Positions 17,074 through 17,691 of a stretch of DNA of 17,691 bases are shown here, piece after piece. The position numbers and the translations under genes were made by a program. The notes under the pieces are model-generated. The model was not told where the DNA came from. It saw only the letters and a program-made list of their open reading frames with translations, and did no database searches. The first letter of the stretch is position 1, and the number at the start of each line of letters is the position of its first letter. The stretch covers positions 1-17,691 of the forward strand of contig JAGLRQ010000111.1 in NCBI GenBank assembly GCA_023136205.1, read 5' to 3'. Source of the DNA: Candidatus Auribacterota bacterium (GTDB lineage: Bacteria > Auribacterota > UBA6266).

Positions 17074-17691
17074 TTATTCCCCTGCCGGTTCCGCGGAAAT
17101 AGAGAGCGATTTTTCTACTGCCGGCTTAATCATTTCATCTACTGCTTTTGTTCCTGTTAAAGGCCTGTCTTTATATTCTTCCAGTAACGTTTCTCTTTCC
17201 CCGGAAGGAGATTTTTTCGTCTTTATCATCATCTCCCTCTCAAGTTCAATTCTCCTGTCAAACTGCTTTGTTCTCTCATTGAAAGTATCCCATTCATCCT
17301 TTGAAATACTTACCCGCTTTTCATCGGTCAAAATGCGGGGGGTTATAAAAATAATTAATTCAGTTTTCTTTTCCACATCAACATTTTTTCGGAATAACAA
17401 CCCCAGAAGAGGAATATCGCCAAGTAAAGGAACTTTATCTATCTCTTTAGACTTCTCAGTATCTATAAGGCCTCCAAGTATCGCGGTTTCACCGTCTTTT
17501 ACCATCATAGTGGTATCTGCCTCGGTAAGGATAACCCTGACAGCCTGGTCATTTAATACGTATTCTCCCCTGCTAACCTCAGGATGAACCTTCATGGTTA
17601 TAAAATTGTCTTCTCCTATTCTTGGTGTAACGAGCAGTTTTATCCCCACATCAATATATTTTATCTCTTCAATAACAAGATGGCTAATCGG
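17074..17691 (-). CDS. Secretin (GspD/PilQ/MshL superfamily), C-terminal part only; ORF is open to the window edge
   Basis: The frame stays open from 17649 to 17691 ([15 protein letters not shown] precedes the tracked GTG). The canonical secretin C-domain is present: [25 protein letters not shown]...ETAILGGLI...[36 protein letters not shown]. An 84-aa charged tail follows. The TAA is 3 nt from the next gene's ATG. Confidence 0.85.
   Translation of the reverse strand, partial: [205 protein letters not shown]

What the first reader, a model, noticed from the sequence alone, without database searches (positions are those of the whole stretch)
17074..17691. Secretin gene translationally coupled to the Wzz/BY-kinase pair, sitting where a Wza-type exporter is expected
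Seen: the right-edge ORF carries a canonical secretin C-domain ([14 protein letters not shown]...[11 protein letters not shown]). Its stop (17076-17074) is 3 nt from the ATG of the chain-length determinant (17070). That gene's SD (AGGGGA) lies inside the secretin tail, so the two are very likely co-transcribed and coupled. No Poly_export/SLBB (Wza/OPX) protein is encoded anywhere in the 17.7 kb. Established: Wzx/Wzy pathways with PCP/BY-kinase export through Wza-family OPX proteins. Secretins are known conduits for T2SS, T3SS, type IV pili, competence and filamentous phage, not for polysaccharide. PEP-CTERM-type EPS loci commonly carry a GspA/ExeA/MshM-like ATPase, and its homologues assist secretin assembly. 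Inference: this secretin may be the outer-membrane conduit for the polymer, or for proteins sorted with it. The 84-aa E/K/R-rich extension after ITPRIL (nt 17077-17328) is longer than a usual S-domain and could be the contact surface for the co-polymerase.
Basis: partly seen in the sequence, partly recalled or inferred. Interest (0 to 1): 0.7.

Follow-up and report, generated by a model that had tools for sequence, protein, structure and literature searches.

The report
Secretin replaces Wza in exopolysaccharide operon
In a group of uncultured bacteria (Auribacterota and Omnitrophota), a dedicated secretin gene sits exactly where sugar-polymer export operons normally carry their Wza-type outer-membrane exporter, which suggests the secretin carries the polymer out of the cell.

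Summary
The minus-strand ORF at the right edge is the last 205 codons of a 550-aa secretin. It stops 3 nt before the ATG of an XrtA-type chain-length determinant (PCP), and the PCP's Shine-Dalgarno lies in the secretin's last codons.

Extending the contig shows that the secretin is the first gene of a roughly 27-kb exosortase-type EPS locus. carB lies upstream and is transcribed the other way. There are no pil or gsp genes, and no Poly_export/SLBB gene occurs anywhere in the locus.

- **Conserved adjacency:** all 12 distinct related loci with a secretin at least 46% identical have the PCP 0-11 nt downstream, against 1 of 131 loci with more distant secretins.
- **Same slot as an OPX:** three PCP homologues outside this clade each have a Poly_export (OPX) gene in that position.
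- **Dedicated paralogue:** a second, PilO/GspC-linked secretin appears to share a genome with the EPS-linked one.

The most likely function is a dedicated outer-membrane channel of the EPS pathway. That function is inferred, not shown.

A channel for PEP-CTERM proteins is the main rival. An OPX gene elsewhere in the genome could not be excluded. The long tail is variable and predicted disordered, so it is unlikely to be a conserved docking surface.

A 2025 paper shows that secretins act as slime nozzles, so this is a new variant of a known kind.

The parts
17074..17691 (-). 3' part (last 205 codons plus stop) of a 550-aa secretin. The full gene is L001:8345-9997, with a signal peptide, N0/STN, two Secretin_N domains, the Secretin domain and a tail.
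   Evidence: Pfam Secretin E 8.7e-35 for the fragment. The full-length protein has STN, two Secretin_N stretches and Secretin. The AF2 model has pLDDT 77.7 and its best PDB matches are PulD, GspD, PilQ and InvG.
17077..17328 (-). 84-aa C-terminal tail of the secretin. It has low-confidence helices (residues 468-504), then a variable, disordered E/K/R-rich stretch.
   Evidence: Composition and clade alignment. pLDDT is about 55-60 for 470-504 and below 50 for most of 505-550. No clade-specific residues fall in the tail.
17068..17083 (-). Junction: SD-like AGGGGA (17083-17078) inside the secretin's last codons, stop TAA (17076-17074), 3-nt spacer, and the PCP's ATG (17070-17068).
   Evidence: Read directly from the sequence. 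Equivalent junctions are 0-11 nt in the 9 related loci where both gene ends could be read. No terminator-like site on the coding strand.
15454..17070 (-). Polysaccharide co-polymerase / chain-length determinant (538 aa), XrtA type.
   Evidence: TIGR03007 268.9 bits, matched over the full length, cutoff 278.85. Pfam GNVR.
14616..15437 (-). Separate BY-kinase (273 aa).
   Evidence: TIGR01007 144 bits (cutoff 108); TIGR03018 152 bits (below its cutoff); Pfam AAA_31.
13212..14498 (-). Wzx-type flippase.
   Evidence: Pfam Polysacc_synt and Polysacc_synt_3.
11989..13200 (-). Polysaccharide pyruvyl transferase (CsaB-like).
   Evidence: PF04230 E 6.5e-44; TIGR03609 186 bits.
5958..11900 (-). Glycosyltransferases (GT2 at 10938-11900; GT4 at 9756-10931, 7195-8331 and 5958-7178) and a Wzy_C polymerase/ligase-like protein (8318-9742).
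   Evidence: Pfam and NCBIfam matches. PEP_O_lig_1 (TIGR03097) scores 109.7 bits for the Wzy_C protein.
3750..5951 (-). GH20-like glycoside hydrolase with a CBM4_9 domain. Secretion was not tested; the N-terminus only looks hydrophobic.
   Evidence: Pfam Glyco_hydro_20b and CBM_4_9.
1129..3685 (-). GT2 (2552-3685), hexapeptide acyltransferase (1968-2534) and XrtA-system polysaccharide deacetylase (1129-1965).
   Evidence: TIGR03006 305.3 bits, above its 276.2 cutoff. Pfam matches.

Best explanation
The right-edge ORF is the end of a dedicated secretin paralogue. It is the first gene of an exosortase-associated (XrtA-like) Wzx/Wzy exopolysaccharide operon, in an Auribacterota genome and in related Omnitrophota.

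[quoted passage not shown] In canonical XrtA loci that component is a short OPX (TIGR03027) plus the TIGR03016 outer-membrane protein.

Proposed mechanism, with the status of each step:
1. Repeat units are built on undecaprenyl phosphate by the WecA-like transferase and the glycosyltransferases, flipped by Wzx and polymerised by the Wzy-like protein. This is an inferred assignment from family matches.
2. The PCP and its BY-kinase control polymerisation (inferred).
3. The growing polymer is handed from the periplasmic domain of the PCP into the N0-N1-N3 vestibule of a multimeric secretin and leaves through its gated beta-barrel (inferred).
4. Tight coupling of the two genes provides matched amounts of the two partners (inferred). 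The tight junction itself is shown.
5. In most Omnitrophota relatives, an upstream REC-GAF-GGDEF gene that overlaps the secretin start puts the module under c-di-GMP-linked control. The gene arrangement is shown; the control is inferred.

Shown: the identity of the genes, the operon structure, the conserved adjacency, the clade structure, the absence of OPX from the locus, and OPX at the same position in relatives. Not shown: that polysaccharide passes through the secretin.
For: **Gene identity and operon structure**
- It is a true secretin with intact N0, N1, N3 and barrel domains.
- It is the first gene of the locus. carB is divergent upstream, and no pil or gsp genes lie within 10 kb on either side of the locus.
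- The locus runs secretin, PCP, kinase, Wzx, glycosyltransferases, Wzy, deacetylase, WecA-like transferase, TPR lipoprotein, exosortase, EpsI.

**Conserved adjacency**
- 12 of 12 distinct loci with a secretin at least 46% identical have the PCP 0-11 nt downstream, followed by the kinase. Only 1 of 131 loci with 25-44% identical secretins does.
- Upstream neighbours differ between loci: carB, a tRNA-binding protein gene, or a GGDEF gene.
- 33 secretin hits share a contig length with PCP hits, and three pairs carry adjacent NCBI locus tags.
- All secretins labelled EPS-linked (4 by inspected context, the rest by contig-length match) form one clade in a neighbour-joining tree. The four secretins with inspected non-EPS contexts (one full T2SS-type operon, two PilO/protease-linked, one without any system genes nearby) fall outside it.

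**Positional replacement**
- PCP homologues outside the clade are preceded by Poly_export/SLBB genes: L174 in Uliginosibacterium (TIGR03027, 237.8 bits), L175 in Omnitrophota, and L176.
- L174 also carries the TIGR03016 outer-membrane protein and the TIGR03015 ATPase. These were not detected in the clade loci.
- No OPX is present in 235 kb of clade loci, nor in the precomputed Pfam tables for L001, L003, L086, L088 and L089.

**Dedicated paralogue**
- P0065 (EPS-linked) and P0102 (PilO and T2SSC-like upstream, protease downstream) both list a 684,193-bp contig as their longest. P0065 was shown on NCBI contig SDBU01000001.1. P0102's context was read from an ENA scaffold, with a similar place not displayed. 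They therefore appear to share one genome.

**Precedent**
- PilQ and GspD secretins are required for exopolymer slime secretion (PMC12475490).
Against: - No experiment, and no structural or co-evolution evidence, shows contact between the PCP and the secretin.
- An OPX gene elsewhere in these genomes could not be excluded. The one OPX homologue search was too insensitive to decide.
- The secretin has the same domain architecture as its T2SS-type paralogues and only about 10 clade-specific residues. Nothing in its sequence marks a new substrate.
- Secretin gates are normally opened by a pilus or pseudopilus, and none is encoded in the locus. Pilin-like genes lie upstream in one Omnitrophota sub-clade.
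- CTERM-tagged proteins of other sorting systems use T2SS secretins (PMC11980579), which favours the protein-conduit rival.
- The PCP, kinase and exosortase score just below the XrtA-specific NCBIfam cutoffs.
Confidence: 0.55

Rival explanations
1. The secretin is the outer-membrane exit for the proteins of the system, not for the polymer. PEP-CTERM proteins processed by the exosortase, possibly glycosylated or linked to polymer, would cross the outer membrane through it. The polysaccharide would use another route.
For: - The locus ends with an exosortase and EpsI.
- A PEP-CTERM protein gene lies divergently next to the secretin in the 66%-identical locus L086.
- How PEP-CTERM proteins cross the outer membrane is unknown (Haft 2006, PMC1569441).
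- MYXO-CTERM and GlyGly-CTERM proteins depend on the T2SS to cross the outer membrane (PMC11980579).
Against: - The secretin is coupled to the PCP, about 25 kb from the exosortase.
- It occupies the OPX slot, and the OPX and the TIGR03016 outer-membrane protein are missing. The polymer would then have no exporter in the locus.
- No GspE/F ATPase, platform or pseudopilins that could drive protein export are in the locus.
- A PEP-CTERM gene also flanks the OPX in the canonical locus L174, so that adjacency does not discriminate.
- Whether the Omnitrophota loci carry an exosortase could not be checked, because the flanks were too short.
Confidence: 0.2
2. It is an ordinary T2SS or type IV pilus secretin that happens to be co-located and co-regulated with biofilm polysaccharide genes. 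Its partners (GspC/PilP, pseudopilins, ATPase) would be encoded elsewhere, and an OPX elsewhere would export the polymer.
For: - It scores close to the PilQ and GspD models (267 and 241 bits) with the same architecture as T2SS-type paralogues.
- Type IV pilin-like genes lie about 0.5 kb upstream of the GGDEF-secretin pair in five Omnitrophota loci.
- Coincidental T4P-EPS neighbourhoods do exist. L147 has a real PilQ (AMIN domains, pilO upstream) 2 kb from a PCP.
- Some Auribacterota MAGs are reported to encode type IV pili (PMC9324843).
Against: - The junction is 0-11 nt in every locus where it could be measured, and the secretin is the operon leader or follows only a GGDEF gene.
- The adjacency survives divergence to 46% identity and changes of upstream context.
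- A separate PilO/GspC-linked secretin appears to exist in the same genome as an EPS-linked one.
- The pilin synteny also includes gmk-rpoZ-coaC-coaB, so it may reflect descent only. It is absent from the window, L086, L089 and L101-L103.
- No AMIN domains are present.
Confidence: 0.15
3. The adjacency is inherited synteny with no functional meaning, or the secretin is a decaying remnant.
For: In one sub-clade the synteny extends to unrelated housekeeping genes, which shows that gene order alone can persist by descent.
Against: - The ORF is intact in all loci read, with 100 or more invariant columns across the clade, including N0 and gate-region motifs.
- Coupling is tight, and upstream contexts differ across sub-clades.
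- The split is sharp: 12 of 12 against 1 of 131.
Confidence: 0.03

Closest known systems
Canonical XrtA/PEP-CTERM exopolysaccharide loci (Haft 2006; e.g. Uliginosibacterium locus L174)
   Same: It shares a PCP of the TIGR03007 type followed by a BY-kinase, the DUF3473 deacetylase (TIGR03006), GT4 glycosyltransferases, a Wzy/O-ligase-like protein, an exosortase and EpsI.
   Different: The gene directly 5' of the PCP is a secretin, not the short OPX TIGR03027. The TIGR03016 outer-membrane protein and the TIGR03015 GspA-like ATPase are absent. The PCP, kinase and exosortase score just under the XrtA-specific cutoffs.
Wza-Wzc (OPX-PCP) trans-envelope translocon of E. coli group 1 capsule / colanic acid
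   Same: The outer-membrane component is encoded directly next to a PCP with BY-kinase activity in a Wzx/Wzy pathway. By analogy, the channel is expected to dock on the periplasmic tip of the PCP (PMC12881504 is listed; the docking model is from established knowledge).
   Different: The outer-membrane protein has no Poly_export, SLBB or Wza_C domain. It is a beta-barrel secretin with N0/N1/N3 rings, expected from solved secretins to form 12-15-mers with a much wider, gated pore. The kinase is a separate protein.
Composite class-3 OPX / beta-barrel (Wzp) translocons of Myxococcus (PMC9601211, PMC9603273, PMC12819527)
   Same: These are another case where the Wza paradigm does not hold and a different outer-membrane pore is paired with the PCP machinery. 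Canonical XrtA loci (short OPX plus TIGR03016) look like this type.
   Different: Here both the short OPX and the barrel are missing, and one secretin stands in their place. None of these three surveys mentions secretins.
Secretin slime nozzles: PilQ of filamentous cyanobacteria and GspD of Myxococcus xanthus (Zuckerman, So & Hoiczyk 2025, PMC12475490)
   Same: A PilQ/GspD-family secretin is implicated in the release of an exopolymer. That paper asks whether the secretin is the outer-membrane part of already known EPS pathways.
   Different: In those organisms the secretin is the general T4P or T2SS secretin. It is not encoded with Wzx/Wzy genes, and Wza homologues are present. Here a dedicated paralogue is coupled to the PCP, and no OPX is in the locus.
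T2SS GspD and type IVa pilus PilQ secretins
   Same: It shares the N0/STN, Secretin_N and Secretin architecture. The clade profile matches solved PilQ and GspD at E of about 1e-58 to 1e-50.
   Different: It is below both equivalog/subfamily cutoffs. It has no AMIN domains, no gspC-M or pilMNOP neighbours, and a longer, variable C-terminal tail.

Membership tests
Secretin superfamily (PF00263) | C-terminal secretin beta-domain | tested here: met
   PF00263 at E 6e-44 for the full-length protein (residues 306-466) and 8.7e-35 for the window fragment.
Secretin superfamily (PF00263) | Periplasmic N0 (STN) and ring-building Secretin_N domains | tested here: met
   STN at 54-97, and two Secretin_N stretches, the best at residues 116-175. 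The AF2 model shows a second alpha/beta domain at 176-233 and gives pLDDT of about 90 over the N-domains.
Secretin superfamily (PF00263) | Fold similarity to solved secretins | tested here: met
   Foldseek best matches are PulD 6hcg (E 2e-25), GspD 5zdh, InvG 6q14 and PilQ 6w6m. The clade profile matches PilQ and GspD chains at about 1e-58.
Secretin superfamily (PF00263) | Multimeric gated pore in the outer membrane | not testable with these tools
   Needs biochemistry or cryo-EM.
T2SS secretin GspD (TIGR02517) | Score above the equivalog cutoff | tested here: not met
   241.1 bits against a cutoff of 351.35.
T2SS secretin GspD (TIGR02517) | Encoded with gspC-M genes | tested here: not met
   carB is divergent upstream and the PCP lies downstream. 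No T2SSE/F/G/C genes lie within 10 kb on either side. A 37%-identical relative, P0116, does sit in such an operon.
Type IVa pilus secretin PilQ (TIGR02515) | Score above the subfamily cutoff | tested here: not met
   267.3 bits against a cutoff of 284.35, a narrow miss.
Type IVa pilus secretin PilQ (TIGR02515) | pilMNOP upstream and (often) AMIN domains | tested here: not met
   No PilM/N/O/P genes and no AMIN match. L147 shows what a true PilQ next to EPS genes looks like.
OPX / Wza family | Poly_export (PES) and SLBB domains | tested here: not met
   The secretin has neither. No such gene exists in the locus or in 235 kb of clade loci, while the positive controls were found.
XrtA / PEP-CTERM EPS system | Exosortase plus EpsI | tested here: met
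   TIGR02602 (exosortase) 152.1 bits against cutoff 105.55. TIGR02914 (EpsI) 103.8 bits against cutoff 42.8. The XrtA-specific model scores 178.4 bits, below its 208 cutoff.
XrtA / PEP-CTERM EPS system | XrtA-type PCP (TIGR03007) and kinase (TIGR03018) | tested here: inconclusive
   The PCP scores 268.9 bits against cutoff 278.85, matched over its full length. The kinase scores 152.4 bits against cutoff 230.65.
XrtA / PEP-CTERM EPS system | XrtA-system deacetylase (TIGR03006) | tested here: met
   305.3 bits against cutoff 276.2.
XrtA / PEP-CTERM EPS system | OPX TIGR03027, outer-membrane protein TIGR03016 and ATPase TIGR03015 | tested here: not met
   All three are present in the canonical locus L174 (237.8, 268.1 and 435.6 bits). 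None was detected in the window's locus or the clade loci.
XrtA / PEP-CTERM EPS system | PEP-CTERM substrate proteins in the genome | not tested
   The genome could not be scanned. One PEP-CTERM protein lies next to the secretin in the related locus L086.

The most novel reading that the evidence does not exclude
A secretin docks directly on a PCP/BY-kinase Wzx/Wzy machine and is the sole outer-membrane translocon for the polymer. This would be a further outer-membrane export solution for Wzx/Wzy polysaccharides, beside Wza-type OPX and OPX/beta-barrel composites. It would also be the first secretin whose dedicated, genetically hard-wired substrate is a polysaccharide, opened by the polymer or the PCP and not by a pilus or pseudopilus.
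Probability: 0.4. Interest if true: 0.85.

Novelty: new variant of a known kind. Interest (0 to 1): 0.72.

Why it matters
How secreted polysaccharides cross the outer membrane is unsettled. Most OPX proteins lack a membrane-spanning part (PMC9603273).

A 2025 study found that secretins form exopolymer "nozzles". It explicitly asked whether a secretin can be the outer-membrane part of a known EPS pathway, and how widespread this is (PMC12475490).

This locus gives a genomic answer that can be tested. A whole clade of dedicated secretins is coupled to the PCP of a Wzx/Wzy, exosortase-type pathway, and the OPX is gone from its usual position.

- **Experimental handle:** it defines a minimal gene set (secretin, PCP, kinase) for reconstitution and structural work.
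- **Annotation:** these genes are currently named PilQ or GspD and may be counted as evidence for pili or a T2SS in Omnitrophota and Auribacterota MAGs.
- **Exosortase biology:** it offers a candidate outer-membrane route for the long-unexplained PEP-CTERM/exosortase system.

Tried and rejected
- **Canonical gene order from plasmids:** tblastn of the PCP against PLSDB gave no match.
- **OPX elsewhere in the same genomes:** a homologue search seeded with the L176 OPX returned only 31 hits, mostly Nitrospirae-like, and none on a secretin-bearing contig. It was too insensitive to count as evidence of absence.
- **Tail as docking surface:** rejected as a conserved feature.
- **GspA-like ATPase as an assembly factor here:** rejected. 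No such gene is in the locus, while it is present in the OPX-type locus.
- **Pilin genes upstream as evidence for a pseudopilus piston:** considered. They are conserved in one sub-clade only, and that synteny also covers gmk-rpoZ-coaBC.
- **Periplasmic innovation in the PCP that could mark partner switching:** none found. The clade-specific feature is a 20-25-aa cytoplasmic C-terminal extension.
- **Clade-specific residues in the secretin:** only 10, of which 7 are in N0-N3. That is too few to argue from.
- **Promoter and terminator scans of the junction and upstream region:** no more sites than in shuffled sequence.
- **Complex modelling of secretin plus PCP:** not attempted.
- **Literature searches:** secretin with exosortase, PEP-CTERM, chain-length determinant or Omnitrophota gave no paper describing this arrangement.
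Full report
**1. The observation**

On the minus strand, window 17691..17074 reads through without a stop for 205 codons. The translation ends ...[35 protein letters not shown], followed by 84 further residues. The fragment matches Pfam Secretin at E = 8.7e-35.

The junction is as described. The stop TAA is at 17076-17074, then the spacer GCA, then the ATG of the next gene at 17070. AGGGGA at 17083-17078 lies inside the last secretin codons, 7 nt from the ATG.

The next gene (538 aa) matches the XrtA-system chain-length determinant TIGR03007 over its whole length (268.9 bits, cutoff 278.85) and Pfam GNVR. The following gene is a separate BY-kinase. The rest of the window encodes a Wzx flippase, a pyruvyl transferase, GT2 and GT4 glycosyltransferases, a Wzy_C protein, a GH20-like hydrolase, an acyltransferase and the XrtA-system deacetylase. 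No ORF has Poly_export or SLBB.

**2. Extending the contig**

The PCP sequence is found on a 291-kb ENA scaffold, ERZ23498405 scaffold_5. Near-identical proteins are named Candidatus Aureabacteria, which is the phylum Auribacterota in the PVC group.

The full secretin is 550 aa. It has a signal peptide, N0/STN, two Secretin_N domains, the Secretin domain (residues 306-466) and the tail. Directly upstream lies carB on the opposite strand, about 220 nt away. Beyond it are housekeeping genes, with no pil or gsp genes. The secretin is therefore the first gene of the operon.

Downstream of the window the locus continues in this order:
- an AbiEi/AbiEii pair;
- a WecA/MraY-like initiating transferase;
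- a polytopic membrane protein of 284 aa;
- a TPR lipoprotein;
- an exosortase (TIGR02602, 152 bits) and EpsI;
- pgi, which ends the locus.

From carB to pgi there is no OPX, no TIGR03016 outer-membrane protein and no GspA-like TIGR03015 ATPase.

**3. Is the adjacency conserved?**

Homologues of the secretin are abundant in Omnitrophota MAGs. They are about 500-570 aa long and are annotated as PilQ, GspD or "secretin N-terminal domain protein". I fetched 80 loci from reference genomes and 80 from metagenomes, plus contexts for chosen proteins.

- All 12 distinct loci whose secretin is at least 46% identical, and that have at least 1 kb of 3' sequence, carry the PCP gene immediately downstream. 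The kinase follows wherever the sequence reaches, then the flippase and Wzy.
- Of 131 loci with secretins 25-44% identical, one does. That one is L145, a 2.3-kb contig with broken reading frames.
- The secretin-PCP junction is 0-11 nt in all nine related loci where both gene ends could be read.
- Upstream neighbours differ. They are carB, with a PEP-CTERM protein gene in L086. In L089 the neighbour is a tRNA-binding protein gene. In nine loci it is a REC-GAF-GGDEF gene of about 675 aa that overlaps the secretin start by 4 or 14 nt or ends 3 nt before it.
- Independent support comes from the two homologue lists. Thirty-three secretin hits share a contig length with PCP hits. Three pairs carry adjacent NCBI locus tags: GY853_05140/05145, HY810_00510/00505 and A2879_03825/03830.

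More distant relatives sit in other contexts:
- P0116 (37% identical) ends a full gspE-F-G...pilM/N/O operon.
- P0098 and P0102 (about 44%) follow PilO and T2SSC-like genes and precede a secreted protease.
- P0112 has none of these neighbours.

P0065 (EPS-linked) and P0102 (PilO-linked) both list a 684,193-bp contig as their longest. P0065 was shown on NCBI contig SDBU01000001.1. P0102's context was read from an ENA scaffold, with a similar place not displayed. The two therefore appear to share one genome, which makes the EPS-linked secretin a dedicated paralogue.

In a neighbour-joining tree, every secretin labelled EPS-linked falls in one clade. Four of them are labelled by inspected context and the rest by contig-length match. 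The four secretins with inspected non-EPS contexts fall outside that clade.

**4. Does it sit where an OPX is expected?**

PCP homologues outside this clade were looked up.
- In Uliginosibacterium (24% identical; L174) the order is: PEP-CTERM protein, OPX (TIGR03027, 237.8 bits), PCP, kinase, TIGR03016 outer-membrane protein, TIGR03015 ATPase, deacetylase ... exosortase.
- In an Omnitrophota contig (27%; L175) a TPR-Poly_export fusion ends 1 nt before the PCP.
- In L176 (39%; from the same study as the window) a 264-aa Poly_export protein ends 11 nt before the PCP.

The slot 5' of the PCP thus holds an OPX in relatives and a secretin in this clade. A custom OPX profile found these controls at E <= 1e-57. 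It found nothing at E <= 10 in 19 clade loci totalling 235 kb.

**5. The protein itself**

The AF2 model (pLDDT 77.7) shows N0 (residues 30-110), N1 (115-171), N3 (176-233) and the barrel (239-466). A low-confidence loop spans 259-290. It matches PulD, GspD, InvG and PilQ structures.

The architecture is the same as in the T2SS-type paralogues. Only about 10 positions are clade-specific: 7 in the N-domains, 3 in the barrel and none in the tail.

Only the first 30 or so residues of the tail are semi-conserved (T..R....E......RT). Overall tail length ranges from about 38 to 103 residues. Most of 505-550 has pLDDT below 50. The final acidic codons double as the Shine-Dalgarno sequence of the PCP gene. 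The tail is therefore unlikely to be a conserved docking surface.

The secretin-coupled PCPs show no new periplasmic domain. Their distinguishing feature is a 20-25-aa cytoplasmic C-terminal extension.

**6. Interpretation**

The strongest reading is that the outer-membrane component of an XrtA-like Wzx/Wzy pathway was exchanged for a secretin in an ancestor of these Omnitrophota and Auribacterota lineages. A secretin supplies in one protein what a short OPX plus a beta-barrel supply in the canonical system: a periplasmic vestibule and an outer-membrane pore.

This is inference from gene order, coupling, clade structure and absence. No data show polymer passing through the channel.

The main rival is that the secretin exports PEP-CTERM proteins. 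Haft (2006) left their outer-membrane route open. MYXO-CTERM and GlyGly-CTERM proteins depend on the T2SS. Against this, the secretin is coupled to the PCP, the polymer would be left with no exporter in the locus, and no ATPase or pseudopilins are present. A dual role is possible.

A third reading is an ordinary pilus or T2SS secretin that is merely co-regulated. The dedicated paralogue, the operon-leader position and the sharp clade boundary weaken it. It is not excluded, because an OPX elsewhere in the genome could not be ruled out (one search was uninformative). L147 shows that true PilQ operons can lie near EPS genes.

**7. What is known**

The OPX surveys do not mention secretins. Searches that combined secretin with exosortase, PEP-CTERM, chain-length determinant or Omnitrophota found no description of this arrangement.

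The concept does have a precedent:
- In Nostoc, loss of PilQ or PilB reduces released polysaccharide (PMC7690835).
- Zuckerman, So & Hoiczyk 2025 identify cyanobacterial PilQ and Myxococcus GspD as slime nozzles. They ask whether secretins serve as the outer-membrane part of known EPS pathways and how widespread this is.

The present clade is a genomic case of exactly that. It is a new variant of a known kind and not a new category.

**8. Verdict**

Confidence that the secretin is part of the EPS/exosortase system is about 0.85 to 0.9. Confidence that it is the polymer's exit is about 0.55. Interest is 0.72.

Noticed in passing
window 245-907 (minus strand) and L003:11083-12521: An AbiEi-like antitoxin and an AbiEii toxin gene pair sits inside the EPS locus, between the deacetylase and the WecA-like transferase. 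It looks like an insertion into the operon.
   Followed up: partly
L088:7987-10014; also L006:331-2358, L095:2763-4790, L101:3306-5327 and five more loci: In nine Omnitrophota relatives, a REC-GAF-GGDEF diguanylate cyclase gene overlaps the secretin start by 4 or 14 nt, or ends 3 nt before it. There the conserved core is GGDEF-secretin-PCP-kinase. The gene is absent from the window's lineage.
   Followed up: partly
L088:6290-7597; L096:1275-2103; L095:1888-2274; L094:1330-1731; L106:699-1121: One to three tandem type IV pilin-like genes (N-terminus GFTLIELLVV; N_methyl plus SBP_bac_10) lie about 0.5 kb upstream of the GGDEF-secretin pair in one sub-clade. Synteny there also covers gmk-rpoZ-coaC-coaB, so the link may be by descent only.
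   Followed up: partly
L093:8957-13354 and L090:9302-14048: Paralogous Omnitrophota secretins (about 44% identical) form a compact module. In L093, PilO and T2SSC-like genes lie upstream and a Peptidase_M10 gene lies two genes downstream. In L090 a Peptidase_C25 gene follows directly, but its two upstream genes have no Pfam hit. No ATPase or platform gene is nearby.
   Followed up: no
window 3750-5951 (minus strand); L086:19181-20872; L089:19206-21059: A glycoside hydrolase is a conserved member of these EPS loci. It is GH20-like with CBM4_9 here and in L088, and GH123 in L086 and L089. It may be a polymer-processing enzyme.
   Followed up: no
window about 15457-15531 (minus strand); alignment A4: PCPs coupled to a secretin carry a cytoplasmic extension of about 20-25 aa after the second transmembrane helix. 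The aligned PCPs from outside the clade lack it; three of them (P0201, P0215, P0221) were shown to be OPX-coupled. It may be a docking site for the separate BY-kinase.
   Followed up: partly
L003:14764-15930: A 388-aa TPR lipoprotein (lipobox LLITGCGG; BamD/YbgF-like matches) lies directly upstream of the exosortase. TPR lipoproteins such as PilF and PilW are pilotins for PilQ, so it could assist secretin assembly. Its conservation could not be checked because the flanks were too short.
   Followed up: no
L147:330-7165: A genuine PilQ (two AMIN domains, pilO upstream) lies 2 kb upstream of a PCP and EPS cluster, separated by two genes with no Pfam match. It is an example of a pilus operon simply neighbouring EPS genes.
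   Followed up: partly
window 17077-17085 and equivalent junctions in L086, L088, L089, L095: The last codons of the secretin (G-E or E-E) form the purine-rich Shine-Dalgarno of the PCP gene in most clade members. This may explain why the extreme C-terminus is the only conserved part of the distal tail.
   Followed up: partly
window 11989-13200 (minus strand): A CsaB-like pyruvyl transferase (TIGR03609, 186 bits, below its cutoff) suggests the polymer is pyruvylated, as in polymers that anchor SLH-domain proteins.
   Followed up: no
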